Of a stretch of DNA of 64,000 nt, positions 5,644 through 59,795 are shown one piece after another. Both the position numbers and the translations under genes were made by a program. The notes beneath the pieces were generated by a model. That model saw only the letters and a list, made by a program, of their open reading frames with translations, ran no database searches and was not told where the DNA came from. Within the stretch, counting starts at the first letter, position 1. Each line of letters opens with the position of its first letter. The DNA comes from Candidatus Dojkabacteria bacterium (lineage in GTDB: Bacteria; Patescibacteriota; Dojkabacteria; B142; OLB20): NCBI GenBank assembly GCA_046753765.1, contig JBHHUN010000002.1, positions 1,570 to 65,569 of the forward strand. Direction: 5' to 3'.

Positions 5644-5647
5644 AACG

Positions 5648-6645: not shown

Positions 6646-7884
6646 ATGGCGCAGGATAAGGCGATATTAAGAAAACTGAAGAATCGTGAAATAAAGATTA
6701 GGGATCTTGAAAAGCACGTCAGTGATAAAGAAGCAGCTGACCTTCGCTTGCGATACTTTAGTGAAGTAACCGGATTAGATCTCAAAACTTTCTCAGGCTA
6801 TAAGTTTGAACCCAAGAAACTAAAGAACAAAAATATAGAGAACCTGACGGGATCGATTGAGATTCCCTTGGGGGTCTCTGGGCCTTTGTTAGTGAATGGC
6901 CAGTACGCCCAAGGAAAATTCTATATTCCCATGGCCACTACTGAGGGTACCCTTATTGCCAGTGTAGCAAGGGGATCAAAGATAATTAATATGTCGGGTG
7001 GAGCTACAGTATCTTTAACATATCCTGGAATGACACGAGCTCCACTTCTCCGGGTGAGCGGAATCAGGGCAGCGGAGCAAGTTGAGACTTGGGTAAAACA
7101 CAACTTTGATGCCCTAAAGGTTGAAGCTGCACAGACCAGTGCTTTTCTTGAATTGACAGACATAAGGAGCTACAAACTCGGTCGAAACCTGTGGCTCAGG
7201 ATGTCGTTTGATACATCTGAAGCCATGGGGATGAATATGGCAACAAAAGCAGCAAAAGTAGTCTCAGACCTTATCGTACAACAGAACAAAGGTGCCAGGC
7301 TACTTTCAATTTCGGGGAATCTGTGCAACGACAAGAAGCCAAGCATAATTAACATGCTCCTTGGCAGGGGCAGATCGGTACACGCTGAGGTAACAATGAA
7401 ACGGGAAGATGTGATAAAGGTACTCAAAACCACGCCTGAAGAGATGGTTGAAGTAAATCAGGCAAAGGTATGGCAGGGCGGAGTTATTTCGGGCTCTGCT
7501 TCATTCAATGCACACTTTGCAAATATCATTGCAGCTGTGTTTGCTGCAACCGGCCAGGATCTTGCTCACATAGTAAATTCAAGTCAAGGATACATGGTAA
7601 TGGAGCTGGAAGGTGATGACCTTTATGCTGCCCTCTCGCTACCCTCCCTCTTGGTTGGAAACATTGGTGGTGGTACTGGACTTCCTGATCAGGCTACAGC
7701 TCAGAAACTCATGCTTACCAACATAGACGATCCCAGGAAAGAATCTATTAACAATACGCATAAATTGGCAGAAATACTTGCTGTAGCAGTACTCGCGGGA
7801 GATATTAACTTGCACGCTGCTCTTGGCTCTCGAAATCTAGTCAAAGCCCATCAAAAATTAGGTAGAGGGAGGAAGCAAATATGA
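6646..7884 (+). CDS. hydroxymethylglutaryl-CoA reductase, class I (NADPH)
   Basis: EAMGMNM (DAMGMN-type motif), GNIGGGTG and the conserved catalytic-domain layout. Its stop overlaps the next gene start (ATGA). Confidence 0.85.
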   Translation: MAQDKAILRKLKNREIKIRDLEKHVSDKEAADLRLRYFSEVTGLDLKTFSGYKFEPKKLKNKNIENLTGSIEIPLGVSGPLLVNGQYAQGKFYIPMATTEGTLIASVARGSKIINMSGGATVSLTYPGMTRAPLLRVSGIRAAEQVETWVKHNFDALKVEAAQTSAFLELTDIRSYKLGRNLWLRMSFDTSEAMGMNMATKAAKVVSDLIVQQNKGARLLSISGNLCNDKKPSIINMLLGRGRSVHAEVTMKREDVIKVLKTTPEEMVEVNQAKVWQGGVISGSASFNAHFANIIAAVFAATGQDLAHIVNSSQGYMVMELEGDDLYAALSLPSLLVGNIGGGTGLPDQATAQKLMLTNIDDPRKESINNTHKLAEILAVAVLAGDINLHAALGSRNLVKAHQKLGRGRKQI

Positions 7885-8936
7885 AGATCTCACATAATGT
7901 CGGAGTTACAGGTTACGGCGTGGCTATTCCAAGGGGCAGAATTAAAGTCTCCGACATCGCAGAAGTATGGAAGAAAGATGCTAAAAAGGTTGTGGGCTCA
8001 CTGGGAGTAATTGAGAAAAGCGTGCCGGCAATCGACCAGGATGCAGCGACCCTAGCAGTTGAAGCAGCAAAAGCAGCTGTTCGGTCTTCCTCTCCACAAT
8101 CTATTCACATAGGTGCCGTTTACACCGGATCAGAAAGCCATCCATATGCTGTTAAATCAACTTCTGCAATTGTAGGAGAAGCGCTTGGACTACCTAACAA
8201 CTACACCGCAGCAGATTTAGAGTTTGCGTGCAAGGCAGGCACTGCGGCCGTTCAGATCGTTACAGGAATGGTCTCTTCGGGCATGATTAAGTATGGATTG
8301 GCTATAGGTTCAGATACTGCTCAAAGTAGGCCCGGAGACGCTCTGGAGTATTCAGCCTCGGCCGGGAGCGCGGCGTTTTTAATAGGTGCTAACCCTAAAC
8401 AGATAATTGCGAAGATATTACACACATCTTCGTTCACCTCCGATACTCCCGATTTTTGGAGGCGTGAACACCAGACCTATCCAAGACATGGTGGGCGATT
8501 CACCGGTCGACCCGCATATTTTAAGCACGTTACCGGTTCAGTAAATAAGCTACTCAAAGAGACCAAAGCTAAAATCAAGGATTTTGATCATGTTGTGTTT
8601 CATATGCCAAACGGGCGTTTCCCTAAAACTGTAGCAAAGATGCTTAGAGTAACCGAGAAGCAACTTAAGCTGGGATTCACTGTCCCCTACCTTGGCAACA
8701 CATATTCTGCTTGCTCTTTGATTGGATTAGCTGCTGTTCTCGACAAGGCAAAACCAAAATCTAAGATCCTTCTTGCCTCTTACGGTTCAGGTTCTGGTAG
8801 CGATGCGTTCATTCTAGAGGTGACAGATAACATATCAGGATATAGGCCTGAAAATACCGTAGACAAGCTCATATCACACAAAAGCTACGTGCCATATACG
8901 ACTTACATTACAAATGTCAACAAACTACTACGCTAA
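7881..8936 (+). CDS. hydroxymethylglutaryl-CoA synthase, archaeal type
   Basis: Thiolase-fold initiation enzyme (about 350 aa) resembling archaeal HMGCS. It is operonic with a thiolase and a DUF35 protein. Confidence 0.75.
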   Translation: MKISHNVGVTGYGVAIPRGRIKVSDIAEVWKKDAKKVVGSLGVIEKSVPAIDQDAATLAVEAAKAAVRSSSPQSIHIGAVYTGSESHPYAVKSTSAIVGEALGLPNNYTAADLEFACKAGTAAVQIVTGMVSSGMIKYGLAIGSDTAQSRPGDALEYSASAGSAAFLIGANPKQIIAKILHTSSFTSDTPDFWRREHQTYPRHGGRFTGRPAYFKHVTGSVNKLLKETKAKIKDFDHVVFHMPNGRFPKTVAKMLRVTEKQLKLGFTVPYLGNTYSACSLIGLAAVLDKAKPKSKILLASYGSGSGSDAFILEVTDNISGYRPENTVDKLISHKSYVPYTTYITNVNKLLR

Positions 8937-39937: not shown

Positions 39938-40825
39938 CTAATTAAAAATCCGACAGTCTCTTTTAAAAACTAGAGGCGGTTTCATACCAAGACTCATATG
40001 AGGTCTTGTATTGTGATACTTGTAAAGAAATCTCTCTACCCTCATGTTACACGATTTCAGGTCATCCTGTTTATATCTCTTCCATCCCAAACACTCTTTT
40101 CTCAATGTTCTGTTAAAACTCTCAATAAATGACTGCTCATTCTTCTTGTATGGTCTCGCTATTCTATGTCGTTTGCAGTAGCTTGTAACGTTCTGTTTAA
40201 ACCGATCTTTGAACTCACTACCTCCATCTGTTTGTATCATCTCAGAATAGCTGTTAAATCTTCTAGGCATACTCCTTCGAAGAAATCTGTAACCATATTC
40301 TGCTGTAAGTCTTGGCGCTAGATACACATCTACTTCTCTGGTGAATATATCCACTCCAGTAAATGCGAATAATTCTCCAAAGTCCACTGCATCCATTTGT
40401 ACTACCTCTCTTGGCTTAGTAGCTTCTGGGACATGTCCTCTTGGTTGGTTCTTTTTCCATTTACTGCGTATTACGTACTTCTCATGTAAGGCAATGTAGA
40501 TTGTTGATACTGCAATCTTGTAACCATATCTTTCTCTGAGATAGTACTGAATCTTTTGCCCACAACATTCGTTTTCATTCTCTCTGATATCCCATATTCT
40601 TCTCTTGAGTACTGGGTCTAGTTGTCTCTTCCTCCTTTTACCTTTTTTAGCATTCATGTAGTTCTCAAGATACTTATTCAGTCCAATCTCTTCTATTCCT
40701 TTTATCCAGAGATGTACTGTTTCTCTGTGCTTACCTAAATGTTTTGCAATATGGGTTTTAGGCATCCCCCCTTCGTACAGCTCCCACGCTGTGATTATTC
40801 TTGTTGTGTTTTCCATAGTGTCCAT
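39938..40825 (-). CDS. DDE (rve/integrase-core) transposase with N-terminal HTH
   Basis: N-terminal HTH and the catalytic triad context VVQMDAVDF ... IQTDGGSEF ... ESFNRTLRKE. The C-terminal codons lie inside IRL. Confidence 0.8.
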   Translation of the reverse strand: MDTMENTTRIITAWELYEGGMPKTHIAKHLGKHRETVHLWIKGIEEIGLNKYLENYMNAKKGKRRKRQLDPVLKRRIWDIRENENECCGQKIQYYLRERYGYKIAVSTIYIALHEKYVIRSKWKKNQPRGHVPEATKPREVVQMDAVDFGELFAFTGVDIFTREVDVYLAPRLTAEYGYRFLRRSMPRRFNSYSEMIQTDGGSEFKDRFKQNVTSYCKRHRIARPYKKNEQSFIESFNRTLRKECLGWKRYKQDDLKSCNMRVERFLYKYHNTRPHMSLGMKPPLVFKRDCRIFN

Positions 40826-42407: not shown

Positions 42408-44003
42408 CTATAACAGTACTAGAGTTCCTGTGACCACTTGTGCTCCTTCTACCTCGGGATCTTCATCTTCTTCCTCATCGTCTTTTTTGACATCTTCATC
42501 CTCGTTGATTCCATCGTTGTCGTCTACGTCGTCAGTTACGTCGTTATCGTCGTTTTTATCTTTGTCATCATTCATTCCATCCCCATCTTCGTCGTTGCTA
42601 ATTCTGTCATCACCAACGTTATCGTTGTCGATATTTTCGTCTTCGAGCAATAGTTTGGCCATTGAGACTAGTTGCTTTGCCTGCTCTGCCGTATCGTCAG
42701 CCAGGAATAGATTAGTGTCTACTAAGCCTTTAGCCTCCTCTATTTTTGACTTTGCTTGCGCGAGCAACGACTCGACCTCAGTAGTATCCCACCCTGCCTC
42801 AAGAAGTTTATCCTCAAGGTCCTTAATCTTTCCTTCAACGTCCGAAATAAAGTCTAACAGGTGTTCTCCATCTTCTGATGGAAGTTCTGCGTTTCGTTCG
42901 ATCGTCCTCTGCGCATCTTTAGCCATATCTTCTGCAACTTTCGCAGTAATCTTTGCATCTACGTAGCTTTCTGCGCTAAACAGGGTCTCTGCTACTGCAA
43001 TCTTATCCCTGGCAATAGCAATTATCTGTTCTACTTGTGCTCTCAATTCGGGCGTAAGGTCAGTGTCTGCAGCTAACATTGATTCCGCATCAGCAAGTTC
43101 GGACTTTGCTTCGTCGATCTCTTCTTGTGCTTCGATAATAACGTTCTCTTCGTCCAGCTCTCCCATCGACATGATGTCACGAGCGATACTCGAGAGGTTC
43201 CTAGATTGTTTTGCATACAGGTACGCCCTTTCAAGATCTCCACTTGAGTAATACGTATTTGCAGTATCAAGAGAGTCTTGTGCAAGACTTATAAAGTTTT
43301 CAATCTCGCTTATCGTAGGCGCATCAAGTATCAGTCTGTAGAGCTCTAGTTTAGCTCTAGTTCGTACCAAGTCCGACGCTGCCTTGTCTAGTAAGATCTG
43401 AGCCTTCGATTCAACGACAGGTTTCAGGTCTGGATCACTACTACCTCCAATATCAACAATCAGTAAGCCAATAATTTTATCCCCAATCTCAATCGTACCA
43501 GCTAATGATCCTTCGAGCTCCGCCCTTATCTCTGGATCGGGATTGTCAGCGAGTGCCGCAAGTCTGGCCTCCACATCGAAAGCCAGGTCAGCAAATTCGC
43601 TCACAAGGTCAAGAAGGCCCTGCTTGTTAGGGTCTTCGTCTGAGAGTAGGTTTATCAGTTCCTCTGCCTTTTGTAAATCGGCATGGAATTCCGCAAGAAG
43701 AGTTTGTATGGATTTGATATCGTCGTCCGAATCCTGAGCATACACTTTTCCAACTAGTGCAACCGAGGATGATGGATTAAGAATTGCTTCTAGCTCTGTA
43801 ATACGCTCGTCTGCGTGAGCAATATATAACTTCGCCTGAGCGGCCTTATCAGAATTCAGTGAAAACTGAAAATCCTCAAGTGACCTATCAAGGGAATACA
43901 GGGCGTCTCCAGGCTTTGATCCGTCAGCCATAAATAAAACCAAAACTAACAGCCCAATCAAGGCTATTACTATTACCGATCCTATTACTAATTTTTTACC
44001 CAT
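42408..44003 (-). CDS. membrane-anchored coiled-coil protein with acidic low-complexity C-terminus (DUF5667-like, tentative)
   Basis: N-terminal TM helix, a long helical/coiled-coil ectodomain and a D/E/N-rich tail. The plus-strand Ser-rich ORF 42358..42966 is its antisense shadow. Confidence 0.5.
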   Translation of the reverse strand: MGKKLVIGSVIVIALIGLLVLVLFMADGSKPGDALYSLDRSLEDFQFSLNSDKAAQAKLYIAHADERITELEAILNPSSSVALVGKVYAQDSDDDIKSIQTLLAEFHADLQKAEELINLLSDEDPNKQGLLDLVSEFADLAFDVEARLAALADNPDPEIRAELEGSLAGTIEIGDKIIGLLIVDIGGSSDPDLKPVVESKAQILLDKAASDLVRTRAKLELYRLILDAPTISEIENFISLAQDSLDTANTYYSSGDLERAYLYAKQSRNLSSIARDIMSMGELDEENVIIEAQEEIDEAKSELADAESMLAADTDLTPELRAQVEQIIAIARDKIAVAETLFSAESYVDAKITAKVAEDMAKDAQRTIERNAELPSEDGEHLLDFISDVEGKIKDLEDKLLEAGWDTTEVESLLAQAKSKIEEAKGLVDTNLFLADDTAEQAKQLVSMAKLLLEDENIDNDNVGDDRISNDEDGDGMNDDKDKNDDNDVTDDVDDNDGINEDEDVKKDDEEEDEDPEVEGAQVVTGTLVLL

Positions 44004-44085: not shown

Positions 44086-47000
44086 CTAGCCACATTTACT
44101 GTAACCACAACCTCTGCATAAAATGCAGCCTTCTGCGTATTCAAGGTCGCCTGAACACTCGGGGCACTCTAACAGGTCGCCGTATGTATTTACCTTTGTG
44201 TACCCGTCAGCTTTCTCTTCCGGTGTAGGCGCAAGACTCGCTACTGCCTTCGACTCCACGATAATCTCTTCTTCAACCCTAACCTCTTCAGCACTTTGCT
44301 CAGGTACTACTTCCTCAATCTTCTCTTCAACCGCCAAAGTATCAATAAGTTCCTCGAGGCTTTCTCTGGATAGATCTTCACCTCCTCCAGTGCTCACGAC
44401 CTTTTCAGGTTCCTCTTCTTTATCAGCTTTCACGACTTTTTCATCGTCACCAAGTAGACTAATCTGGTTTTTCATTTCGTCAAGATGTCTTTTCATGATC
44501 TTAGCTACAGCATCCGGAACTGAGTAAACTATCATCCCTTTATTCATTGTTGGGGCAGATGTTCTTATACCCTGAAGTTGCTTAATCACCACTTCGGGCT
44601 TGATTCCTGACCGCAGAGACGTTGTCACAAGCCTGCCAATAGCTTCTGTATAGCCAGCCGTGAAGCTTCCGCTCTTACCAAGATTCAAAAACACTTCAAA
44701 CATACCCTTTTCGTCCTCATTGATAGTAATATAAAGATCTCCCTGTTCTGTCTTCACTTCATATGTAAAGCCCTTGATAACATCCCTCCTGCCTCTTGGT
44801 TCAAGCGCATTTCTAACTGCAACCTCGACTTGCCCATGAACTCTCTCGGTTTCGGTCTTTTGTTCTGCCTGAGGCTCAGTCTTTTCATCTTTCGTACCAA
44901 CCTGAAGTGCAGGGTCCTTAGATCCGTCTCTGAAGACAGTGATTCCTTTGCAGTCGAGCTCGTACGCTAGCTGGTACACTCTCGCAATATCCTGCCATGT
45001 AGCATTATTAGGGAGGTTTATTGTTTTTGAAACTGCACTGTCGACGTATTTCTGAAAAGCAGACTGAATTCGAACGTGATCTTCAGGGTCAATTTCATGC
45101 GTTGTACTGAATATCTCTAAAACATCATCGGGGATCTCAAATTCATCTTTGATCTCATGAAGGTGTGACCCTCCAGCCACAACCTCAATCAACTTCTTAG
45201 AATGGAAACCTCTAGCTTTTGCAACAGTTTCAAATAGATGATCTACCACCATCTGATCAGACCCTCCCATAGAGTTTTTTCTGCGATATCCCAAGGCAAA
45301 AACAGGCTCGATTCCAGGATTTGAGTTGGCCACAATCGAGATAGTTCCTGTTGGGGCGATTGTCGTGACCCTAGTGTTACGCATAAATTCTATACCATTT
45401 GCATACCAAGTAGACTTTTCGAATGCAGGAAAATTACCTTTTTCACGACCAAGTTCTTGTGAAGCTTTGTGAGCCTCGTTTTGTACCACCCCCATGACCT
45501 GTTCGGCCAGATTAATAGATTCGTCACTACCATACTTAATTCCCAATTTTATGAGTAGATCAGCAAACCCCATGACTCCAACACCTATATTGCGCGTTTT
45601 TTGTGTCATCTCCTCTATCTCCTTGATTGGATAGTTATTCATATCAATGATATTATCCAGAAACCTTACTGCAGTCACTGTAACCTCTCTAAGCCGGTCC
45701 CAATCTATAAGTTCTGTCTTTCTTTCGAGGTCCCAATTTCGAACTTTTTCATCTGCTGCGTAAGGGAACCCCTTAACCATCTTCGCTAGATTGATATGTC
45801 CCATATTGCATGTTTCGAAGGGGATGAGAGGTTGCTCACCACATGGATTTGTTGCATCCATGGTTCCAAGCTCTGGTGTGGTATTTGAACGCTCTGCACT
45901 GTCTACAAAGTATAACCCCGGATCACCACTCTTCCAGGCGTGCCTTGCTATCTTTTCAAACAACTCACGAGCTTTTAATGTCTTGTAGGTCTTTCCGTCA
46001 TTTGGGTCAATCAGGTTCCAATCTTCATCATTCTTTACAGCCTTCATAAATTCATCGTTGGCACCGACCGAGATGTTGTAGTGTGTTATTGAAACAAGAT
46101 CATCCTTACATTCAAGAAACTCCTCTATGTTGGGGTGGCTTGCGTTTAAAATGGCCATCGAACCAAGTCCCCTGCCCCCTCTACCGCGAATTGTATCTTG
46201 CGCACGGTTATACATGCGTAGATACTCAACAGGACCTGCAGCGTGTTCGCCAGTAGTTTTAACAATTGACATTGATGATCTAAGCTTGGAGAAGTTAAAA
46301 CCTGTGCCAACCCCTCTGCGCAAACACTGTATGTTCCAATTTAAGGTTTGAAAGATTGAGTCTATCGAATCCTCAACCGGTAAAACCAAGCACTTGGACA
46401 TAATAGTTTCCTCGCCCATTCCTGCCCATAGAAGCGTGCCACCACAGTAAAACTCTCCTGTGCTCATCAGATGATAGAATTCCTGTGCAACCTGTTCTCT
46501 TAGTTCTGGTCTTTCAGCCTGAGCGACTTTTGCAGCTATTCGAGTCCACAACTCGTCAGGAGTTTCAATAACGTTGCCGGATTTGTCTTTGGAGAGTGCA
46601 CGTTTTTCCAGTACCTGGAGAGCGTTAGGAGTGACTTCATGCTTTTCGGTGTTACATGAAGTCACAACGAATTTTGAAAAGACTTTTTGTAGTGCGAGAG
46701 TACGGTGGTGGTTCTTAGAGAATTCATCTTCAGTCGGAGCTACAATGTGCTCACCTATACTATCATGAACAAAAATAAATTTATAATCGTTCTGACTGGA
46801 TGTAACTAACTTCCCCGGAAGCTTGCTAAGAGCTGTCACAATCCTTTTAGTTTTAGGATTATAGATACACACCGCAGTAGTTAGGGTAGCAGGTAATCCG
46901 TTACTACCGGATACGCTCTTCACCGTTTTAAACAACTCCTGCGAGTAATCTCCAGATTTACCAAAATACTCAACGACAACTTGGGCTTTCGAGATTCCAA

Positions 47001-49092
47001 CTTCGCCTGTTAAGAAACCTGTCTCTTCAGCAATTGCAATCTTATTTAAACGGTTCGCCACCAGCTTCGCTTTCGAGATAGCTCCTTCTCTGAGTTTGCT
47101 TTCGGATAATTTCCAATCCTTATCTTCATTGGTGAAACTTTCAATCTCCTCTTTGACTGCTGTGAAGTCTGTTTGTTCATTTATAAAAGCACTTATCTCT
47201 TTGCTCTTCTTGGCGTCAGAGGTTGCAATCACTACCTCCATGCCCTGCACCTCTGACTGTTCGTCAAGAGTTTGCCCGGCCGCAACAGACTTTCTCTTTG
47301 AGTTTTCAATAACTTGATACTGCTTGCTTCCGTCACGGTAGATTGTTATTCCCTTACATCCTGTTTCCCAAGCTTGAATGTAAGCCTTTTTGACATCATC
47401 TTTCGTTGCTTCATGTGCCAAATTGATCGTTTTCGAAACAGCCGCATCGACATTTTCCTGTGCTGCAGCCTGCATTTTGACGTGCCACTCGGGAGCAATA
47501 TCATGGGTTGTAACAAAAAGCTTCTTAGCTTCTTCAGGAACCTCTTTTAAACCACACAGTGATCCTTTGTTGTCAGCTATCTTTTCCATTAATTCTTCAG
47601 TATAGAAGTCCTTGCTCTTTGCGTACTCCTCAAACTGTGGAGTCACATAGAGTAGAGACTTCCTTTCATTGGAGCTCTTTCCGTCATCCTGATAAAAAAC
47701 CGAATGCCGGTAAACAAGGGCAAATACAGGCTCGATTCCACTAGAACAATCAGCTATTAAGCTTAGCGTTCCTGTTGGGGCAATCGAAGTCACTGTAGCA
47801 TTACGTAGACTTTTTCCTAGTTTATCCCATTTGCTTCCCTTAAACTCAGGGAACAGTCCACGTTCTGTGCCAAGTCTCGCTGATTCTACAAGAGACTCTT
47901 CCTCAATAAATTTGACTATCTTTCTCGCCAAGTCAGTTCCTTCTTCAGAGTTATACGCGACTCCCAGTTTAAAAAGCATTGTCGCAAACCCCACTATCCC
48001 AAGTCCTAGCTTTCTAGTTTTCTCAACTTCAGCTTCAATTTTTCCCAGAGGGAAGTTTGAGAGGTCGATCATATTGTCTAGAAAGTGTGTTGCAAGATGC
48101 ACGGACTTACGAATCTGGTCCCAATCGATTTTATGTCCTGAACCAGTTTTAGTGAGATGGGTAGGCAGGACAATTGAGCCAAGATTACAGGACTCGTATG
48201 CCCTCAAGGGTTCTTCGCCACATGGATTGGTGGCTTCGATTATTCCAAGCTTTTTTGTTGGATTCGCTCTTTCTGACGTGTCGAGAAAAAATAAACCTGG
48301 GTCAGCACATTCCCAGGCTTTTTCGCAAATAAGATCGAACACAGCTCTGGCTCGGAGTTTTTTTACTAGCTTGCCGTTTCTGGGGTTGACAAGGTCGTAC
48401 TCTTTATCATCACGAAGCGCGTGCATAAAGTCATCTGTTATTCCTACTGAAGTATTAAAATTTCTGATAGATGAATCACGGCCCTTTAAATTAATAAATT
48501 CAATGATATCTGGGTGATTAACATTCAAGATCGCCATATTTCCACCACCACGCTTCTTTCCCTGAAGCACCTGGTCAAATGCCTGAGAGTAACTACGAAT
48601 GAAGTGAATTGGTCCTGCTGCGACATTTGGAGTACCGCCAACACTATCGCCTTTTGGCCTTATATGTGAAAAGTTAAAACCAGTGCCTCCGTTGTTTTTT
48701 TGAACGATCGCTGCCTCTTTCATAGTCTGAAAAATTGACTCAAGGTTATCTTCAATCGGCAGCACAAAGCACGAAGACAGTTGACCCGTTCCGTCGGTGT
48801 CGTTGCCTGCTTCGTATAGCACCCTTGCTCCCGGGAGAAACAAGTTACTGGATAGTAGGTCGTAGAATTCTCTGGCGGTTCGCAACACAGCACGTTTCTT
48901 CCTTGCTGGTGCACCCTTTACATACTTGGCGTCTTCACCAGCCATGCTGGCAGCGACCCTCCAGAACATCTCAAGTGGGCCTTCAACTAACTCACCTTTC
49001 TTATCCCTGAGGAAGGACCTTTTTTCCATAATCTTTAGTGAATTCTTCGATACAACTGGAGTGTTTAGATCATCCGGTGGACTTTTTGTCAT
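44086..49092 (-). CDS. nrdJ: tandem-fused class II (adenosylcobalamin-type) ribonucleotide reductase: two complete NrdJ catalytic units plus C-terminal Cys4 zinc-ribbon
   Basis: One uninterrupted 1668-aa frame. Both halves carry the full motif sets: [17 protein letters not shown] / [17 protein letters not shown]; [12 protein letters not shown] / [12 protein letters not shown]; [10 protein letters not shown] / [10 protein letters not shown]; ESCNLGS / ETCNMGH. A linker of about 230 aa has no assignable motif. The C-terminus is [27 protein letters not shown]. Confidence 0.85.
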
Positions 49093-49109
49093 TTTCAGTG
49101 ATGGTCGTT

Positions 49110-49571
49110 TTAAATATTACCTTTAAGGGATTTTAGAAATTTATCTGCTTTTTCAAACACAAGCATCTCCACTGGCAAAAAAGTGTCAGTATCAAAGTCA
49201 GCAAGTTTTTTCCAGACTATCTCGCTGATCTGCGCGGGGTCGCCAATCTTAATCTTTCCAAACCTGTACCTGCCAATAAAAAACTGCATCAAGCTTTCAA
49301 ACCCGCCTTTCCCAATAAATGCCTGATCAGTAAAAGGGATGGGGCCATCGGCAATTTCAACACCTGTTTGCGCAAACACAAGCTTTGCAACTTGATCCTC
49401 CATTACCTCCCACATCTGTCCGTCAACGTGTGTGAGCTCAGCAGATGGGAATGTGTACTTTCCAGTGTCAGCTTTACGGATCAACAAAAATTCACCACTG
49501 TCATTGATAACGAGTCCTCCGAGAGTTACCGCAAATAGATTGTTTTGGCTCATAATTAATATTCTAACCAA
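49110..49571 (-). CDS. Nudix-like small protein (degenerate Nudix box), within nrd operon
   Basis: [37 protein letters not shown] loosely fits Gx5Ex7REUxEExGU. Confidence 0.3.
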
Positions 49572-50005
49572 TTTAATTGATGCTCACTGCGTGCGTATTC
49601 TTTAAATAACTTGGCGGTAAGCGTTCTGTTTACTGTCGATGCCATGTACCCCTCAATAAAGCCCTGTGCCTCCGGTGCTGACACTTCGCTCAGCTCTGCA
49701 AAATTTGGGCTAAGTTTCTGCAACTCAATTTTTGTGTCAAGTTCACTGTGCTTTAGGATTAATTTGATGTACTTGAGGCTTTCGCCAAACGACTGGATCT
49801 CAGCTCGTTCTACCTCAATAATATGGTCATCTCCTACAAGACCAAACATACTGAACTGCCACTCTTTCGTATCTGTCCAGACCCTTATTACATCTTTGTT
49901 GTCTCCACTTCCAGTTCTGACCCTCACACCAAACTCGAGGTCGTTAATGACTTTGTGCAGAAATACACTTTTTGAAAGTTTGAAATCCTGTAAGGTCGCT
50001 CTCAT
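49556..50005 (-). CDS. hypothetical protein, within nrd operon
   Basis: 149-aa ORF overlapping its neighbours at both ends; no motif recognised. Confidence 0.35.
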   Translation of the reverse strand: MRATLQDFKLSKSVFLHKVINDLEFGVRVRTGSGDNKDVIRVWTDTKEWQFSMFGLVGDDHIIEVERAEIQSFGESLKYIKLILKHSELDTKIELQKLSPNFAELSEVSAPEAQGFIEGYMASTVNRTLTAKLFKEYARSEHQLNWLEY

Positions 50006-51849
50006 TTGGTCTGTTTGATATTTAATACCTGCTTATCTCTGCTTTTGTCCCGGTATATTGTGATACCTTTCAAGTTGAGATCTGCAGCCAGCTTAACTGC
50101 GTCGACAATGTCTTCTATATCAGCTTGTTCAGGGAGATTGATCGTTTTAGAAACGGCGTTATCAGTGTATTTTTGAAAGGCAGCTTGCATCCTAATGTGC
50201 CACTCAGGCTTAATATCAAAAGCAGTTACAAATACTTTCTTAACACGATCGGGTATCCTATTTATATCATGAATTGTTCCCTTCGTGGCAATTTCTTTCA
50301 TTAATTCCTGATCAAAGAGCCACTCATCCTTAAGTCTTTGCTCAAGATACTTGTTCACATAGAGCATCTCCTCATCACCTATTGTTTCCATATTTTTCCT
50401 AACATAGGCAAGTGCAAAGAAGGGTTCGATCCCTCCGTTGCAATCAGCCAACAAGCTGGTTGTCCCGTTTGGCGCAATTGTAGTTACAGTGGCATTTCTC
50501 ATCGTCTTATAACCAACCTCGTCCCACCGTGAACCACTAAAATTACCAAAACTACCACGGAGCTCACCGAGCCTTCTAGATGCTTCATGGCCCTTATCTT
50601 GAATAAAAGCCATAACCTTTTCGGCTAAATCAAGAGCCTCGTCACTGTTATAAGAAATGTCGAGCTCGTACAGTAAATCGGCCCAACCCATTACGCCGAT
50701 CCCAATCTTACGGTTTCCTTTTTTTACTATCTCTTCAATCTCTGGAAGAAGGTGGTTGGAAACAGTGATAGTGTTATCCAGAAAGTGTGTAGCGACCTTA
50801 ACAACTTCTTCTAATCTATCCCAATTTATCTTTTCTTCTGGTCGAATCTTCTCTTTCCGCTTTGCCTGAACGACAAACTTATTGAGAACAACGCTGCCAA
50901 GGTTGCAGGCTTCATATGGCAGAAGAGGTTGTTCCCCACACTGGTTGGTTGCCGTCATCCTGCCAACATTGAGTGTCGGATTAGAGCGATTGATCTCATC
51001 AATGAAGATAAATCCCGGCTCGCCACTCTGGTGGATACTGGTTGCTATATCGTACAGAACTTCTCTCGCCGAAAGCTCTTCGTATACGTTTCCGTTATGC
51101 TTGAGTTCGTATTTGGTACCCTCTCGGAGTGCCTTCGTGAACTCATCAGTGATAGCAATGGACATGTTGAAGTTTGTAAGCTGGGAATAATCTTGTTTGG
51201 CAGAAATGAAACGCATCATATCCGGGTGATCTATCCTTAGTATTCCCATGTGACCAGCATGACGCATAGCCCCCCTATTCATAATCACTTCAGAAGAGAA
51301 ATCATACAGTCGCATAAACGAGATAGGTCCACTGGCTTCTTTGCCAGTACTTTTCACCTTCTCTCCCTCAGGTCTTATCTCTGAGAAATCATATCCTATC
51401 CCTGCACCTCTACGGTGAAGTACGACTGTATTTGCAAGAGTACCGTAGATTGATTCGATGGAGTCGTGAATTGGCATTACGTAGCACGCCGCAACCAAGT
51501 CTTCTTTCCCCCGGTCAAGTAGAGACATCCCCGAGAGAAACTCTAATTTCGCTTGAATTTCATAAAATTTATCCTCAGTCGCCTCAAGCTGCTTTTTTGT
51601 GGGTTTCTTATATCCTTTCTTTTTATCACTTAGATCTGCATCACCACTGGCCATAAATTTGGAGATCCTCTTGAACATAGCTTCTGGAGACTCATCTGGA
51701 TCGCCGTTTTTATCTAACTTATAGTAGCGTTTCGAGGCAATAAACTTTGCATTACTAGATAGATTTGGTTGTGTTGAAAACCTTTTTTGCATCATCGAAT
51801 TATTATTGATTGTCTGATATTCTTCTAAGCTCTGCGATTGCTTGCTCAA
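50002..51849 (-). CDS. nrdJ: class II ribonucleotide reductase (NrdJ), 615 aa, no C-terminal Cys tail
   Basis: VAACYVMPIHDSIESIY, GAGIGYDFSEIRP, TATNQCGEQPL and EACNLGSVVL. The start may be the internal MMQKRF. Confidence 0.85.
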   Translation of the reverse strand: MSKQSQSLEEYQTINNNSMMQKRFSTQPNLSSNAKFIASKRYYKLDKNGDPDESPEAMFKRISKFMASGDADLSDKKKGYKKPTKKQLEATEDKFYEIQAKLEFLSGMSLLDRGKEDLVAACYVMPIHDSIESIYGTLANTVVLHRRGAGIGYDFSEIRPEGEKVKSTGKEASGPISFMRLYDFSSEVIMNRGAMRHAGHMGILRIDHPDMMRFISAKQDYSQLTNFNMSIAITDEFTKALREGTKYELKHNGNVYEELSAREVLYDIATSIHQSGEPGFIFIDEINRSNPTLNVGRMTATNQCGEQPLLPYEACNLGSVVLNKFVVQAKRKEKIRPEEKINWDRLEEVVKVATHFLDNTITVSNHLLPEIEEIVKKGNRKIGIGVMGWADLLYELDISYNSDEALDLAEKVMAFIQDKGHEASRRLGELRGSFGNFSGSRWDEVGYKTMRNATVTTIAPNGTTSLLADCNGGIEPFFALAYVRKNMETIGDEEMLYVNKYLEQRLKDEWLFDQELMKEIATKGTIHDINRIPDRVKKVFVTAFDIKPEWHIRMQAAFQKYTDNAVSKTINLPEQADIEDIVDAVKLAADLNLKGITIYRDKSRDKQVLNIKQTK

Positions 51850-52276
51850 AGTCTTCTATAGAGTCAAAGTCTCTATACACAGAAGCAAAAAGCAAGTAGC
51901 CAATCGTATCGAGCTTTTTTAGTCGGGTCAAAACCATCTTACCTATCTCATTCGATTTTACCTGGCTAGTTTTTCTATTTAGTAGCTTAAGCTCAATATC
52001 ATCGATCAACTCATCGATCTCACCCTCAGGAATCATCCTTTTTTTCACTGCTTTTGTAATGCCTTTTTTTAATTTCTCTCTGTCAAACTCCTCAATTTTT
52101 CCACTCCGTTTTTCAACATTCAGACTTATTGTCTCAACTCGCTCATACGTAGTAAACCGTTTAGCACAGCTCAGGCACTCTCTTCTCCTCCTTGCAACTC
52201 CTGTTTCATTGTTGTCTCTCTTATCTACTACTTTTGTCTCCTCACAGTGACAATATGGACAAAACATGGCTTTCAA
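51803..52276 (-). CDS. nrdR: transcriptional repressor NrdR
   Basis: N-terminal zinc ribbon CPYCHC...CLSC followed by an ATP-cone. Confidence 0.85.
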   Translation of the reverse strand: MKAMFCPYCHCEETKVVDKRDNNETGVARRRRECLSCAKRFTTYERVETISLNVEKRSGKIEEFDREKLKKGITKAVKKRMIPEGEIDELIDDIELKLLNRKTSQVKSNEIGKMVLTRLKKLDTIGYLLFASVYRDFDSIEDFEQAIAELRRISDNQ

Positions 52277-52314
52277 ATCTGATTAAGTAGTCTTGGGGCG
52301 TGAGCAACGCAGAG

Positions 52315-52359
52315 CACAATAAATTGTGTTGCAGATACAAGCTAACAACAACAGGTTGT
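52315..52359 (+). promoter_or_regulatory. tandem NrdR-box-like palindromes upstream of nrdR
   Basis: CACAATAAATTGTG (52315-52328) fits CAC-N8-GTG (aCACwAtATaTwGTGt). A second palindrome ACAACAGGTTGT (52348-52359) is centred 32 bp away. Confidence 0.45.
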
Positions 52360-52455
52360 GCTTGTCAAGAAGTCATGACTTCTTAACATCGAATTATGCT
52401 GCAGTCAATTCAAAACATTTGTTTTTAAGTTCTGGAAAAATTTCGGTATAAATTT

Positions 52456-57494: not shown

Positions 57495-59795
57495 ATGTAT
57501 TGGGCAGATAAACTGGCAGAAGAGATCCCACAAGGGAGAAAGCACCGGGTCGACGACATGAAGACACCTTCCGGACACGCACATGCAGGGTCACTTCGAG
57601 CTATCGCAACACATGGTCTTGTATTCGAAGCGATGCAACAGGCCGGTCACGATGTTGACTTTACTTATGTCGTCAATGACATGGATCCGATGGATGGTCT
57701 TCCGGTGTATCTTTCGGAAGAGCAATACAGACAGCACATGGGCAAACCCCTATTTATGATTGATGCCCCCGACGGAAAGTCAGAGAGTTATGCAAAACAA
57801 TATGCCTCCGAGTATATTGAGGCCTTCAACAGACTACATTTCAAACCAAAAATTCACTGGTCATCTGAGCTTTACAAGTCTGGAAAAATAGATCCGTTCA
57901 TTCGTATGTCACTTGATAATGCAGAGGTGATCAGAAAAATCTACAAGAAAGTTGCCGGTCAACATAAACCCAAACAGTGGCATCCTTTTCAAGTTATATG
58001 CCCAGAGTGTGGGAAGATAGGGACCAATCTAGTGACGGACTGGGACGGTAATACTGTCGAGTACGAATGTAAAAGAGGTCTCGTGGAATGGGCCACAGGA
58101 TGCGGTGAGAAAGGCCGCATAAGCCCCTTTGGCGGAACAGGTAAACTGATGTGGAAGGTAGATTGGGCCGCGCACTGGGCTGCAATGGATATTACAGTTG
58201 AGGGAGCCGGTAAAGATCATTTTAGCGAGGGCGGATCAAGGTACGTCTCAGCGGCCATCATAAAAGAAGTCTTCAATATTGAACCACCATTCGGTTTTCT
58301 CCATGAATTTCTTCTCATCGGTGGAGCAAAAATGTCTTCATCTAAAGGAAACGCCACTACTGCAGCAGAGTTCTCCCAAATAATCCCTCCCGAACTTGGA
58401 AGATTTTTATTCGTGCGTACACCGTATCAACGCGCAATCAATTTCGATCCCAGCGTCAGTAACACCATTCCAGATCTCTTTGATGAGTACGACCGCAACG
58501 CCCTGGCCTACTTCGAATCTGGAACAGAAACCGACTTTGGCCGATATTTCGTGGCAGCTCATGTTAACAAACCACCTGATGAAGCTATATTTCTACCTCG
58601 TTTTAGACAGGTGGCCACCTTGCTGCAAATGCCATCAGTAGACTTAAAGGAATACTTCACCAAGGAAAAAGGTTCCCCACTAAATACCATCGAACTGGCA
58701 ATACTCGAAGAACGTATCCAGTATGCGCAGATCTGGCTAGATAAGTTTGCTGACGAAAGTGAGATATTTGAAGTAAAAAGCCAGATCCCCAGTGAAACCA
58801 AGAAACTCACAGGTGGACAAAGAGAGTTCCTCTCGGAGCTTGTCGATCTGCTTAAAAGGAAGAGTTTTAAGGATGGAGAAGCGCTGCAGCAGGCTATCTA
58901 TAAAATTGCGAAAGCTTCGAAAGCGCACAGCAAGGGCGGTTTCGAAGCAATCTATCTCTCATTGCTTGGCAAAACACACGGACCAAAAGCAGGATGGCTG
59001 CTCTTTGAACAGCTGAAGACTGAAAAAATGACCCTACTTGAACGACTGGCGGATATAGCTGAGGGGAAGTTGGCAGAAGTAGAATCTCGAGACCTGTTAC
59101 CGGTAATTACAATTTCTGATCGACTGAAAGTCTCAGACGAGGTTAGATCAAAATGGCCGTCGATCACAATTGGCTATGCGGAGATAGAAGGTGTACAAAT
59201 TGCTTCTAAAAACAAAGAGCTTGAGAAGCTAAAGGCTGAGAGGCTGTCTGGCCTGAAAGCTATTACCAGAGGACAGATCAACTCTTTTCCTGAAATAATG
59301 AGTTACAGAAAGCTATATAAAGAGACCGGTGTAGATTGGCACTCACGCAGACCAAGTCCAGAGGCGCTTCTACGCAGGCTCACCCAGGGAAAAGATCTTT
59401 ACAGCATTAACACATGTGTGGATGCCTATAACCTTATCGTCATGGAAAATCGCGTCAGTGTAGGCGCATTTAATTACGATACACTGCAGTTCCCAACTGA
59501 GCTCAGAATTGCCAGGGGCGACGAAGAGATCATGCTGTTAGGTGACACGGATTCAACCAAATTGAAGGAAGGAGAGCTCTGTTACTTCGATATGAAAGGC
59601 CCATATAATCTAGACTTCAACTTCAGGGACGCTGAACGTACAAAAGTAACCTTGGACACGACCAATCTCCTTATAAATGTCGAGGGGGTTTACGATATCT
59701 CCAGAGCACAGGTCGAAGAAACGCTCATTGCGACCGTTGAGATCATTAAAAAATTCTGCGGTGGCACTGTGAAGAAACTTGAGATTATTCGTTAG
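57495..59795 (+). CDS. class I lysine--tRNA ligase fused to a C-terminal B3/4-like domain
   Basis: HIGH-like PSGHAHAGSLR and KMSSSKGN (KMSKS) in a LysRS-I-like Rossmann core. The last 220 aa or so (INTCVDAYNLIVMENRVSVGAFNYDTLQFPTELRIARGDEEIMLLGDTD...) match the B3/4 fold of PheT. Confidence 0.75.
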   Translation: MYWADKLAEEIPQGRKHRVDDMKTPSGHAHAGSLRAIATHGLVFEAMQQAGHDVDFTYVVNDMDPMDGLPVYLSEEQYRQHMGKPLFMIDAPDGKSESYAKQYASEYIEAFNRLHFKPKIHWSSELYKSGKIDPFIRMSLDNAEVIRKIYKKVAGQHKPKQWHPFQVICPECGKIGTNLVTDWDGNTVEYECKRGLVEWATGCGEKGRISPFGGTGKLMWKVDWAAHWAAMDITVEGAGKDHFSEGGSRYVSAAIIKEVFNIEPPFGFLHEFLLIGGAKMSSSKGNATTAAEFSQIIPPELGRFLFVRTPYQRAINFDPSVSNTIPDLFDEYDRNALAYFESGTETDFGRYFVAAHVNKPPDEAIFLPRFRQVATLLQMPSVDLKEYFTKEKGSPLNTIELAILEERIQYAQIWLDKFADESEIFEVKSQIPSETKKLTGGQREFLSELVDLLKRKSFKDGEALQQAIYKIAKASKAHSKGGFEAIYLSLLGKTHGPKAGWLLFEQLKTEKMTLLERLADIAEGKLAEVESRDLLPVITISDRLKVSDEVRSKWPSITIGYAEIEGVQIASKNKELEKLKAERLSGLKAITRGQINSFPEIMSYRKLYKETGVDWHSRRPSPEALLRRLTQGKDLYSINTCVDAYNLIVMENRVSVGAFNYDTLQFPTELRIARGDEEIMLLGDTDSTKLKEGELCYFDMKGPYNLDFNFRDAERTKVTLDTTNLLINVEGVYDISRAQVEETLIATVEIIKKFCGGTVKKLEIIR

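What the first reader, a model, noticed from the sequence alone, without database searches (positions are those of the whole stretch)
44086..52360. nrd locus with three complete class II RNR catalytic units, two fused head-to-tail in a 1668-aa polypeptide
Seen directly: one uninterrupted 5-kb frame (44086..49092) encodes two full NrdJ-type catalytic units, each with its own active-site motifs (LPxED...IF radical-site region, GTGFNFS, TNPCGE thiyl-Cys loop, E(S/T)CN(L/M)G). Only the second unit ends in a Cys4 zinc-ribbon tail. A third, stand-alone NrdJ (615 aa, no Cys tail) lies upstream. NrdR and NrdR-box-like palindromes sit ahead of the whole array. The three units are strongly diverged from one another, so they are old paralogs, not a recent duplication or assembly artefact. 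Class II RNRs are normally monomers or homodimers of a single chain, so a covalent tandem 'pseudo-dimer' in which both halves keep catalytic residues is unusual. It may be an intramolecular dimer with shared allosteric regulation or divided specificity. The tail-less NrdJ may depend on the fusion's tail or on a separate reductant. Two uncharacterised small ORFs (one Nudix-like) lie between them.
Basis: partly seen in the sequence, partly recalled or inferred. Interest (0 to 1): 0.72.

Follow-up and report, generated by a model that had tools for sequence, protein, structure and literature searches.

The report
Fused double B12 ribonucleotide reductase array
A candidate-phylum (Dojkabacteria) bacterium makes DNA building blocks with three diverged B12-type ribonucleotide reductase units, two of them fused into one 1668-residue chain around an ITPase-like domain. 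This layout is conserved across Patescibacteria, and I found no paper that describes it.

Summary
ORF 44086..49092 (-) is uninterrupted and encodes NrdJ unit A, a Ham1/ITPase-fold domain (the "linker"), NrdJ unit B, a TSCPD domain, an acidic linker and a six-Cys C-terminal domain. A tail-less NrdJ (S), two small ORFs (one a degenerate Nudix fold) and NrdR with paired NrdR boxes lie upstream in one tight operon.

It is not an assembly artefact. At least 116 protein clusters from Dojkabacteria, Kerfeldbacteria, Parcubacteria and other Patescibacteria carry the same A-B fusion. A matches A and B matches B across the family. In all 7 genomic contexts examined, S sits just upstream.

The five catalytic residues are invariant in A, B and S. 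Each paralog has its own conserved loop 2 and its own phosphate-loop motif. Only B carries the electron-shuttling Cys-rich domain.

AlphaFold2 folds each unit confidently (pLDDT 89) but does not fix their packing (pTM 0.56).

Best reading: an NrdR-controlled, three-paralog class II RNR with one shared reducing domain, an obligate 1:1 A/B pair, and an associated NTP-pyrophosphatase module (Ham1 insert or Nudix gene). I found no description in the literature. I rate it a new variant of a known kind.

The parts
52346..52361 (-). NrdR box 1 (weaker; GCACAACCTGTTGTTG, 4 mismatches to ACACWANATNTWGTGT)
   Evidence: It lies 32 bp from box 2. The same paired spacing occurs in L001 (32 bp) and L003 (33 bp).
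52314..52329 (-). NrdR box 2 (ACACAATTTATTGTGC, 2 mismatches)
   Evidence: It is the only site with 2 or fewer mismatches in the 64-kb window, and it lies just upstream of nrdR.
51803..52267 (-). nrdR (Zn-ribbon + ATP-cone repressor). The ORF opens at TTG 52276; the likely ATG is at 52267.
   Evidence: (TIGR00244 159.6 bits against cut-off 124.65).
50002..51795 (-). nrdJ-S: stand-alone class II RNR catalytic unit of 597 aa with no TSCPD or Cys-rich tail. The mechanical ORF extends to TTG 51849.
   Evidence: Catalytic C/N/C/E/C are invariant in 112 orthologues. The apical loop is S-G-M-S.
49556..50005 (-). orf149: conserved small protein of unknown function
   Evidence: No Pfam or NCBIfam hit. 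It is 45% identical to the gene in the same position in L085.
49110..49571 (-). orf153: Nudix-fold protein with a degenerate Nudix box (KLVFAQTGV; the EE pair is lost). The likely ATG is at 49553.
   Evidence: It is 49% identical to the L085 Nudix-like gene and 42% identical to the C-terminal half of the L001 double-NUDIX protein.
47287..49092 (-). NrdJ unit A (aa 1-602) of the fusion. Catalytic residues are C108, N289, C291, E293, C302. Apical loop is P-G-A-R; loop 2 is [11 protein letters not shown].
46669..47238 (-). Ham1/ITPase-fold domain (aa 619-808) inserted between the two RNR units
   Evidence: Pfam PF01725 scores 47.6 bits, E 2.4e-12. The insert profile hits PDB 1vp2 at E 3.6e-8. AF2 gives pLDDT 84.7 and pTM 0.81. 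The top 30 Foldseek PDB hits are all Ham1/ITPase/RdgB-family structures.
44893..46653 (-). NrdJ unit B (aa 814-1400). Catalytic residues are C901, N1082, C1084, E1086, C1095. Apical loop is C-G-G-T; loop 2 is [11 protein letters not shown].
44482..44763 (-). TSCPD (IscU-like) domain, aa 1444-1537
   Evidence: PF12637, 74.3 bits.
44089..44169 (-). Six-Cys zinc/redox array (CX2C-X9-CX2CX2C-X4-C) at the C-terminus, preceded by a 104-aa acidic linker that is 30% D/E
   Evidence: The motif is compared with the S. nassauensis CRD in PMC5704485. It is nearly invariant in alignment A1.

Best explanation
This is an NrdR-repressed operon: nrdR, nrdJ-S, orf149, a Nudix-like gene, then nrdJ-A-Ham1-nrdJ-B-TSCPD-CRD. 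It encodes a three-paralog adenosylcobalamin (class II) ribonucleotide reductase system typical of Patescibacteria.

Shown:
- All three units (S, A, B) keep the full radical and redox catalytic set, and they evolve at equal rates.
- Each unit has its own conserved specificity loop 2 and its own phosphate-binding apical loop.
- Only B carries the TSCPD plus six-Cys domain that re-reduces the active-site disulfide.
- The A-B fusion and the adjacent S gene are conserved in distant lineages.

Inferred:
- The fusion fixes A and B at 1:1 and tethers A to the only reducing domain.
- A and B most likely form a heteromeric (pseudo-dimeric or swapped) pair whose interface holds two non-equivalent specificity sites.
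- S is re-reduced in trans within a higher oligomer.
- The paralogs have divided substrate or phosphate preference among themselves.
- The Ham1 insert (a Nudix gene in most relatives) binds or hydrolyses non-canonical (d)NTPs next to where dNTPs are made.
For: - Architecture.
- Conservation of the fusion: 116 full-length homologues, with window A 45-75% identical to their N-terminal unit and about 41% to their C-terminal unit, and the reverse for B.
- S lies immediately upstream in all 7 contexts: the window, L001, L002, L003/L004, L085, L086 and L087. S orthologues sit on contigs of the same lengths as the tandems.
- The catalytic Cys/Asn/Cys/Glu/Cys are 100% conserved in 116 A, 116 B and 112 S sequences. 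The Arg matching T. maritima R171 is also invariant in all three sets. The Asp matching D141 is invariant in A and B and present in the window's S. From my knowledge of E. coli R1 (D232, R262), these are specificity-site residues.
- Loop 2 is conserved within each paralog but differs between them.
- Apical-loop motifs differ between units, read against the published PNSP/PAGR rule (PMC8365446).
- Within-group identity is 58-62% for all three paralogs.
- Each unit of the model superposes on T. maritima NrdJ at TM 0.82.
- The six-Cys CRD motif matches, and there is published trans electron transfer and published CRD-less/CRD-plus co-occurrence.
- Paired NrdR boxes 32-33 bp apart are conserved in three genomes.
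- Ham1 fold.
- A Nudix gene sits in the array in L001, L085 and L087, and a Ham1 insert replaces it in L002 and L086.
- An adenosyltransferase (CobA/BtuR) gene follows the tandem gene in L003.
Against: - AlphaFold2 gives no confident A:B packing. pTM is 0.56 and the linker pLDDT is below 50. No PAE or coordinates were available, so the heteromeric pair is inferred only.
- Three units is an odd number for a dimer-based enzyme, and the partner of S is unknown.
- B and S apical loops match neither published phosphate-specificity motif, so their substrates cannot be predicted.
- The Ham1 insert has lost the GFGYDP motif and, in the window, carries N->D and D->E changes in two other motifs. It scores far below the NCBIfam equivalog cut-off (38 against 145 bits), so catalysis is uncertain.
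- No expression or biochemical data exist for any member.
Confidence: 0.55

Rival explanations
1. Beads on a string. A and B do not pair with each other. Each forms a conventional homotypic dimer with the same unit of a second chain (A:A', B:B'), or each works independently. The fusion serves only co-expression and sharing of the single CRD.
For: - AF2 folds both units confidently but leaves their relative position undefined (pTM 0.56), and the 25-residue linker is predicted disordered.
- The linker tolerates replacement by a 190-aa domain.
- CRD-containing NrdJ enzymes are known to form tetramers and hexamers (PMC5704485).
Against: - The dimer-helix positions differ systematically between A and B and are conserved within each: T. 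maritima positions 153, 157, 189, 198 and 200. This is what specialised hetero-interfaces would look like, but it is not proof.
- A strict 1:1 fusion kept across deep lineages suggests the two act as a unit.
Confidence: 0.25
2. Three separate isozymes for different conditions or different substrate phosphorylation states (NDP against NTP), as proposed for genomes with several nrdJ genes. The fusion would be incidental.
For: - Schell et al. found that 69% of multi-nrdJ genomes combine predicted NDP and NTP reducers (PMC8365446).
- The three units carry three different apical-loop motifs. Unit A switches between PNSP and PG(S/G/A)R among clades.
Against: - All the genes sit in one tight operon with gaps of 0-17 bp between them, behind one NrdR-box promoter, so they are co-expressed.
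- Two of the three units lack any reducing tail, so they cannot be autonomous in the usual way.
Confidence: 0.1
3. One or two of the units are catalytically dead scaffolds or allosteric partners (pseudo-enzymes), like the inactive inner copies of tandem ATP-cones.
For: - B has a variable loop 1.
- B and S have non-canonical phosphate loops.
- A and S lack a reducing tail.
Against: - All five catalytic residues are 100% conserved in each of the three paralogs over more than 110 sequences each.
- Late-barrel motifs are equally conserved in both fused units. Q..Q...SKT.N...KG.T..R is invariant in A and in B.
- The three paralogs evolve at equal rates.
Confidence: 0.07
4. Assembly or annotation artefact (two genes joined by a frameshift or chimeric contig), or an intein-containing single nrdJ.
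For: The window comes from a metagenome-assembled genome, and reads could not be mapped here.
Against: - The same fusion is found in at least 116 clusters from NCBI, JGI, ENA and Logan assemblies.
- There are 17 independent full-length Ham1-containing versions including the window's own, plus one N-truncated gene call (P0241).
- There is no Hint, LAGLIDADG or HNH hit.
- The insert is a Ham1 fold, and two complete catalytic sets flank it.
Confidence: 0.02

Closest known systems
Thermotoga maritima NrdJ (dimeric class II RNR; PDB 1XJE, 3O0O)
   Same: It is the best sequence and fold match for each unit: phmmer E 1e-108 and Foldseek TM 0.82 at 37-38% identity. It has the same catalytic Cys134/Asn320/Cys322/Glu324/Cys333 set, and the native protein also carries a C-terminal CRD.
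   Different: The T. maritima enzyme is one chain that forms a homodimer. Here two diverged units are fused in one chain, a third is encoded separately, and there is a single CRD for three active sites.
Stackebrandtia nassauensis NrdJd with the Cys-rich domain (Loderer et al. 2017, PMC5704485)
   Same: It has the same six-Cys C-terminal array (CX2C-X9-CX2CX2C-X5-C against X4 here) after a folded domain. Trans electron transfer between subunits and CRD-dependent higher oligomers were shown experimentally.
   Different: It is a homo-oligomer in which every subunit has its own CRD.
Genomes with two NrdJd of which only one has a CRD (Frankia, some Alphaproteobacteria; PMC5704485)
   Same: A CRD-less NrdJ co-occurs with a CRD-bearing NrdJ, like S next to A-B here.
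   Different: Those are separate genes, and no covalent fusion of catalytic units is reported.
Pseudomonas aeruginosa split NrdJa+b
   Same: It shows that the catalytic body and the CRD are separable modules.
   Different: It goes the opposite way: a gene split rather than a fusion of two catalytic bodies.
Lactobacillus leichmannii monomeric RTPR (NrdJm)
   Same: It is a single-chain class II RNR that supplies the specificity-site interface from within one polypeptide. This rests on my own knowledge of PDB 1L1L.
   Different: It uses a non-catalytic insertion of about 130 aa that mimics the partner's helices. It has no second full catalytic unit and no CRD.
Ham1/ITPA/RdgB non-canonical purine NTP pyrophosphatases (e.g. 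TM0159, PDB 1VP2)
   Same: It shares the fold and partly kept motifs: (S/T)xNxxK, ADE(S/T)G and HHR/SHR.
   Different: The insert sits inside an RNR chain, has lost the GFGYDP motif and falls far below the equivalog score. In a profile search of 1.84 billion cluster representatives, this subfamily gave strong matches (E below 1e-30) only inside RNR fusions.

Membership tests
Class II (adenosylcobalamin) ribonucleotide reductase, NrdJ | RNR alpha/beta barrel with a finger-loop thiyl Cys in a TN(P/Q)CGE motif | tested here: met
   PF02867 scores E 1.2e-244 over 2 stretches for the fusion and 2e-117 for S. TIGR02504 scores 1233 and 574 bits against a cut-off of 400. The model superposes on 1XJE at TM 0.82. 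The motif is present in A, B and S.
Class II (adenosylcobalamin) ribonucleotide reductase, NrdJ | Redox Cys pair plus Asn and Glu in the active site | tested here: met
   The equivalents of T. maritima C134, N320, E324 and C333 are invariant in 116 A, 116 B and 112 S sequences.
Class II (adenosylcobalamin) ribonucleotide reductase, NrdJ | Radical generation by adenosylcobalamin, with no NrdB and no glycyl-radical domain | not testable with these tools
   The support is indirect only. The NrdJ equivalog models win over class I and III models. A CobA/BtuR adenosyltransferase gene lies next to the tandem gene in L003. No cobalamin riboswitch was found in the window.
Class II (adenosylcobalamin) ribonucleotide reductase, NrdJ | Dimer interface carrying the allosteric specificity site (dimeric subclass) | tested here: inconclusive
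   The specificity-site Arg is conserved in all units and the Asp in A, B and the window's S. Loop 2 is conserved within each unit. AF2 pTM of 0.56 gives no defined A:B packing.
Class II (adenosylcobalamin) ribonucleotide reductase, NrdJ | Apical phosphate loop PNSP (NDP) or PAGR-type (NTP), found in more than 97% of NrdJ (PMC8365446) | tested here: not met
   A is PGAR, which is PAGR-like. B is CGGT and S is SGMS, which match neither motif. This feature predicts substrate specificity; it does not decide family membership.
NrdJ Cys-rich C-terminal domain (CRD) | Folded domain of 150-220 aa ending in six conserved Cys | tested here: met
   The TSCPD domain scores 74 bits and is followed by CX2C-X9-CX2CX2C-X4-C. 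The Cys are nearly invariant in A1. The CRD is present only after unit B.
Ham1/ITPase (PF01725) | Ham1 fold | tested here: met
   Pfam scores 47.6 bits against a gathering score of 22.5. The insert profile hits PDB 1vp2 at E 3.6e-8. AF2 plus Foldseek gives a top 30 made up entirely of Ham1/ITPase/RdgB-family structures.
Ham1/ITPase (PF01725) | Full catalytic and substrate motifs, and an equivalog-level score | tested here: not met
   TIGR00042 scores 38 bits against a cut-off of 145. The GFGYDP motif is absent. The window has TSDAKK (N->D) and AEETG (D->E), and HHR is kept. It is therefore a Ham1-fold domain, not an established ITPase.
NrdR regulon | NrdR protein (Zn ribbon + ATP-cone) | tested here: met
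   TIGR00244 scores 159.6 bits against a cut-off of 124.65; PF22811 and PF03477 also hit.
NrdR regulon | Two 16-bp NrdR boxes about three helical turns apart in the promoter | tested here: met
   The window has boxes with 2 and 4 mismatches, 32 bp apart. The same arrangement occurs in L001 (3 + 3 mismatches, 32 bp) and L003 (1 + 3 mismatches, 33 bp). The consensus itself is recalled from my own knowledge.
Nudix hydrolase (orf153) | Nudix box GX5EX7REUXEEXGU | tested here: not met
   It is homologous to Nudix-domain proteins, but the box reads KLVFAQTGV with the EE pair lost. It gives no Pfam hit even at E up to 10.
Intein / homing endonuclease | Hint, LAGLIDADG or HNH domain interrupting the host protein | tested here: not met
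   No such Pfam or NCBIfam hit was found. The insert is a Ham1 fold, and complete RNR units flank it.

The most novel reading that the evidence does not exclude
The fusion is a natural single-chain hetero-dimeric class II RNR. In this reading the three paralogous active sites (S, A, B) have divided the substrates between them by base and/or phosphorylation state. Part of the classic effector-driven specificity switching is replaced by division of labour, and all three sites are fed by one trans-acting Cys-rich domain. The embedded Ham1 domain acts either as an on-site (d)ITP/XTP sanitiser or as a new nucleotide-sensing regulatory module, in an enzyme that has no ATP-cone.
Probability: 0.2. Interest if true: 0.85.

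Novelty: new variant of a known kind. Interest (0 to 1): 0.62.

Why it matters
Every characterised class II RNR is a monomer or a homo-oligomer of one chain type. A covalent pair of diverged, fully equipped catalytic units plus a third paralog, conserved in genome-reduced Patescibacteria, would be a new quaternary solution for an essential enzyme.

It offers a natural system for studying asymmetric allosteric cross-talk across the RNR dimer interface. It also offers a way to study trans re-reduction by the CRD, whose physiological reductant is still unknown.

It raises the question of why organisms with roughly 1-Mb genomes and limited nucleotide synthesis spend about 7 kb on three RNR units.

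The recurring link to NTP pyrophosphatases (Nudix gene or Ham1 insert) suggests that dNTP synthesis and pool sanitation are coupled.

On the practical side, these proteins are annotated generically as [quoted passage not shown]. That name hides the architecture and asserts an NDP specificity that the phosphate loops do not support.

Tried and rejected
- The genome-contig scan with the A+B alignment returned only single nrdJ genes from many phyla.
- A bootstrapped neighbour-joining tree in Biopython timed out. I replaced it with bootstrapped between-group identities.
- A single-sequence phmmer search of the insert against the PDB gave only spurious weak hits such as NtrC and spike proteins. A profile of 17 inserts was needed.
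- Promoter and terminator consensus scans found no more sites than in shuffled sequence and were not used.
- Model coordinates and PAE cannot be reached, so inter-unit contacts could not be read. Only pTM was available as a proxy.
- AFDB cannot be used for a consistency check, because bulk models stop at about 1280 aa (my own knowledge).
- I rejected the intein/homing endonuclease reading.
- I rejected a recent duplication, because the units are 40-47% identical and A and B are each orthologous across the family.
- I considered inter-unit covariation analysis but did not run it. About 116 sequences in three clades would be dominated by phylogeny.
- Five literature searches and full-text term searches in two RNR-family phylogeny/extension papers (Protein Sci 2022, PMC9669993, and its bioRxiv 2022 predecessor) found no description of tandem NrdJ or of an RNR-Ham1 fusion. 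Papers outside the searchable library may exist.

Full report
**What is in the sequence**

The minus strand between 44086 and 52276 carries five tightly packed ORFs. The largest, 44086..49092, is an uninterrupted 1668-codon frame. Pfam and NCBIfam resolve it into the following parts:
- a complete class II RNR unit, A, at about aa 19-602
- a Ham1-family domain at aa 619-808
- a second complete unit, B, at aa 814-1400
- a TSCPD domain at aa 1444-1537
- a 104-residue acidic stretch (30% D/E)
- a terminal six-cysteine array, CX2C-X9-CX2CX2C-X4-C

The NrdJ equivalog model TIGR02504 scores 1233 bits against a cut-off of 400.

Upstream lie four more features:
- orf153 (49110..49571)
- orf149 (49556..50005)
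- a tail-less NrdJ, S (50002..51849; probable ATG at 51795, giving the 597 aa of the identical NCBI protein P0121)
- NrdR (TIGR00244 at 160 bits against a cut-off of 125)

Gaps between the genes are 0-17 bp, so this is one operon. Base composition is even across the region. The flanking genes are a Mur ligase, a HIT protein, a GT2 glycosyltransferase and an asparagine synthase. They are ordinary chromosomal genes, and the upstream ones (Mur ligase, HIT protein, GT2 glycosyltransferase) recur next to the array in related genomes.

**Is it an artefact?**

No. The full-length protein is identical to a protein from a Candidatus Dojkabacteria MAG (P0001, a 91.8-kb contig). Nearly all of the best 120 database clusters are double-unit proteins of 1373-1638 aa; the few shorter ones are truncated gene calls. 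They come from NCBI, JGI, ENA and Logan assemblies and are named Dojkabacteria/WS6, Kerfeldbacteria, Parcubacteria and "Patescibacteria group".

I cut the window protein into pieces and ran BLAST against these hits:
- Every full-length hit has both units followed by TSCPD and the Cys tail.
- Window unit A is 45-75% identical to their N-terminal unit and only about 41% to their C-terminal unit. The reverse holds for B.

A and B are therefore orthologous groups, and the fusion is old. Seventeen full-length clusters, including the window's own protein, carry the Ham1 insert between A and B. The rest have a linker of about 25-45 residues.

**The third unit belongs to the system**

S has its own orthologous family: 112 sequences of 570-620 aa at 51-77% identity. 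Many lie on contigs of the same length as tandem-bearing contigs. I examined six further genomic contexts: Dojkabacteria L001 and L085, Ham1-clade L002 and L086, a "Patescibacteria group" MAG L003/L004, and Kerfeldbacteria L087. In every one, a 577-618-aa tail-less NrdJ sits directly upstream of the fusion.

Core-region identities are as follows:

| Comparison | Identity |
|---|---|
| A to B | 47.5% |
| A to S | 43.5% |
| B to S | 44.6% |
| each to T. maritima NrdJ | 40-43% |
| within each paralog | 58-62% |

The three are ancient paralogs evolving at the same rate.

**Are all units enzymes?**

I aligned 116 A, 116 B and 112 S sequences with the T. maritima NrdJ fragment recovered from the PDB search.

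- The equivalents of C134, N320, C322 (thiyl), E324 and C333 are invariant in all three sets.
- The Arg matching R171 is invariant in all three sets. The Asp matching D141 is invariant in A and B and present in the window's S. From my knowledge of E. coli R1 (D232, R262), these are specificity-site residues.
- Late-barrel motifs (Q..Q...SKT.N...KG.T..R) are invariant in both fused units.
- Loop 2, which links effector and substrate sites, is conserved within each paralog but differs between them: A has [12 protein letters not shown] has R(R/G)GG-RGLGSM, and S has (L/M)RG(A/S)VRHAGHM.
- Loop 1 is conserved in A and variable in B.

The apical phosphate loop predicts NDP (PNSP) or NTP (PAGR-type) specificity in more than 97% of NrdJ sequences (PMC8365446). 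Here it reads as follows:
- A: P-G-(S/G/A)-R in most fusions (PGAR in the window), but PNSP or PQSP in the other Ham1-bearing clade
- B: (C/S)-G-(G/Q)-(T/A)
- S: S-G-M-(S/P)

The "diphosphate reductase" annotation is therefore unsupported, and the units are probably functionally differentiated.

**Structure**

AlphaFold2 was run on residues 1-1189 of the Ham1-less orthologue P0003 (75-76% identical per unit, a 97-sequence alignment). It gave mean pLDDT 89.2 but pTM only 0.56, and the inter-unit linker (575-599) fell below pLDDT 50. Foldseek places each unit on T. maritima NrdJ at TM 0.82.

My reading of the pTM is an inference. One well-modelled half contributes about 0.46, so 0.56 implies inter-unit errors of roughly 20 Å. 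The model does not define how A and B pack. Coordinates and PAE were not available. The intramolecular pseudo-dimer remains a hypothesis. It is consistent with conserved differences between A and B at dimer-helix positions (T. maritima 153, 157, 189, 198, 200), but it is not shown.

**The linker**

The insert is not an intein.
- Pfam PF01725 scores 47.6 bits, E 2.4e-12.
- A profile of the 17 inserts hits the T. maritima Ham1 homologue 1VP2 at E 3.6e-8.
- The AlphaFold2 model has pLDDT 84.7 and pTM 0.81. Its top 30 PDB matches are all Ham1/ITPase/RdgB-family structures.
- Motifs (S/T)xNxxK, ADE(S/T)G and HHR are kept in most inserts. The window has TSDAKK, AEETG and HHR. GFGYDP is lost, and the NCBIfam equivalog score is far below its cut-off (38 against 145 bits).
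- In a profile search of 1.84 billion cluster representatives, strong matches (E below 1e-30) are found only inside RNR fusions. There are two 50%-identity clusters, and P0241 is an N-truncated tandem. Free-standing Ham1 proteins appear only at E 1e-11 or weaker.

This is a divergent Ham1-fold domain. Nucleotide binding is likely, but hydrolysis is uncertain.

**Reducing tail**

The tail matches the Cys-rich domain of Loderer et al. (PMC5704485). That domain is a folded region ending in six conserved Cys, four proposed as Zn ligands and two as the redox pair. All six are needed for turnover. Electrons can pass to another subunit's active site in tetramers or hexamers, and CRD-less NrdJd occurs only in genomes that also encode a CRD-bearing one. 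This gives a published basis for one CRD on B serving A (tethered to it) and S (in trans).

**Regulation and companions**

Two NrdR boxes lie upstream of nrdR, at 52314-52329 (2 mismatches) and 52346-52361 (4 mismatches), 32 bp apart. Equivalent pairs head the array in L001 (32 bp apart) and L003 (33 bp apart).

orf153 is a Nudix-fold protein. It is 49% identical to the L085 neighbour and 42% identical to the degenerate C-terminal half of the L001 double-NUDIX protein. Its Nudix box has lost the EE pair. L085 keeps EE, L001 has a canonical second domain, and L087 has a canonical Nudix protein. The other Ham1-clade arrays (L002, L086) have no Nudix gene. Instead they carry a dCTP-deaminase/dUTPase-like gene and a P-loop kinase-like gene. 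An NTP pyrophosphatase therefore travels with the array in every context except L003/L004, where S directly abuts the fusion with nothing between. The window combines a Ham1 insert with a dead Nudix protein. The sample is small.

orf149 is conserved (45% identity in L085), but its function is unknown.

**Verdict**

The most likely mechanism is an NrdR-controlled three-paralog class II RNR with the following features:
- an obligate 1:1 A/B pair
- one shared CRD
- sub-functionalised active sites
- a coupled NTP-pyrophosphatase module

I found no paper describing tandem NrdJ fusions or RNR-Ham1 fusions, although the proteins sit in public databases under generic names. I rate it a new variant of a known kind, with interest 0.62.

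Noticed in passing
window 49110-49571 (-); L001:7000-7878; L085:5482-5958; L087:5219-5686; L002/L086 arrays: An NTP pyrophosphatase accompanies the RNR array in different forms. L087 has a canonical Nudix gene. L085 keeps the EE pair. L001 has a double Nudix protein with one canonical half. L002 and L086 have the Ham1 insert and no Nudix gene. The window has the Ham1 insert plus a Nudix-fold protein whose EE pair is lost. This suggests functional replacement, but the sample is small.
   Followed up: partly
window 49556-50005 (-): orf149 is a conserved small protein (45% identical in L085) that always sits between nrdJ-S and the Nudix-like gene in close relatives. It has no family hit, and its function is unknown.
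   Followed up: partly
L003:12408-12944 and L004:8906-9442: A CobA/CobO/BtuR-type cob(I)alamin adenosyltransferase gene directly follows the tandem nrdJ in a distant Patescibacteria genome. This fits AdoCbl dependence and cofactor salvage.
   Followed up: no
L002:4904-5446 and 7275-7892; L086:2810-3352 and 5306-5923: In the other Ham1-bearing clade the array is preceded by a dCTP deaminase/dUTPase-like gene. It also contains a 205-aa P-loop protein with weak dNMP-kinase-like hits (E 0.004). No adjacent nrdR is seen.
   Followed up: no
window 52363-52388: A 13-nt inverted repeat with no spacer (TGTCAAGAAGTCA / TGACTTCTTAACA, 92% complementary) lies next to the weaker NrdR box, in the divergent intergenic region shared with the Mur-ligase gene. 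Its role is unknown.
   Followed up: no
window 57495-59795 (+): A 766-aa protein combines a class I lysyl-tRNA synthetase domain (PF01921, aa 2-345) with a C-terminal B3_4 domain (aa 605-734), which I recall as a PheRS beta-subunit domain. This is an unusual-looking combination.
   Followed up: no
window 39938-40825 (-): An integrase-core (rve/rve_3) protein with an HTH domain, probably an IS-element transposase, lies about 3 kb downstream of the nrd operon.
   Followed up: no
units A of P0063-P0085 versus P0001-P0062 and P0086-P0120: The apical phosphate loop of unit A is PNSP or PQSP (NDP type) in the other Ham1-bearing clade. It is PG(S/G/A)R (NTP-like) in the Ham1-less clades and in the window protein. 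The window's units are closest to the Ham1-less clade although it carries the insert.
   Followed up: partly
window 42408-44003 (-): A 531-aa DUF5667 protein lies directly downstream of the fusion gene. A terminator-like hairpin at 43969-43947 falls inside its 5' region rather than right after nrdJ.
   Followed up: no
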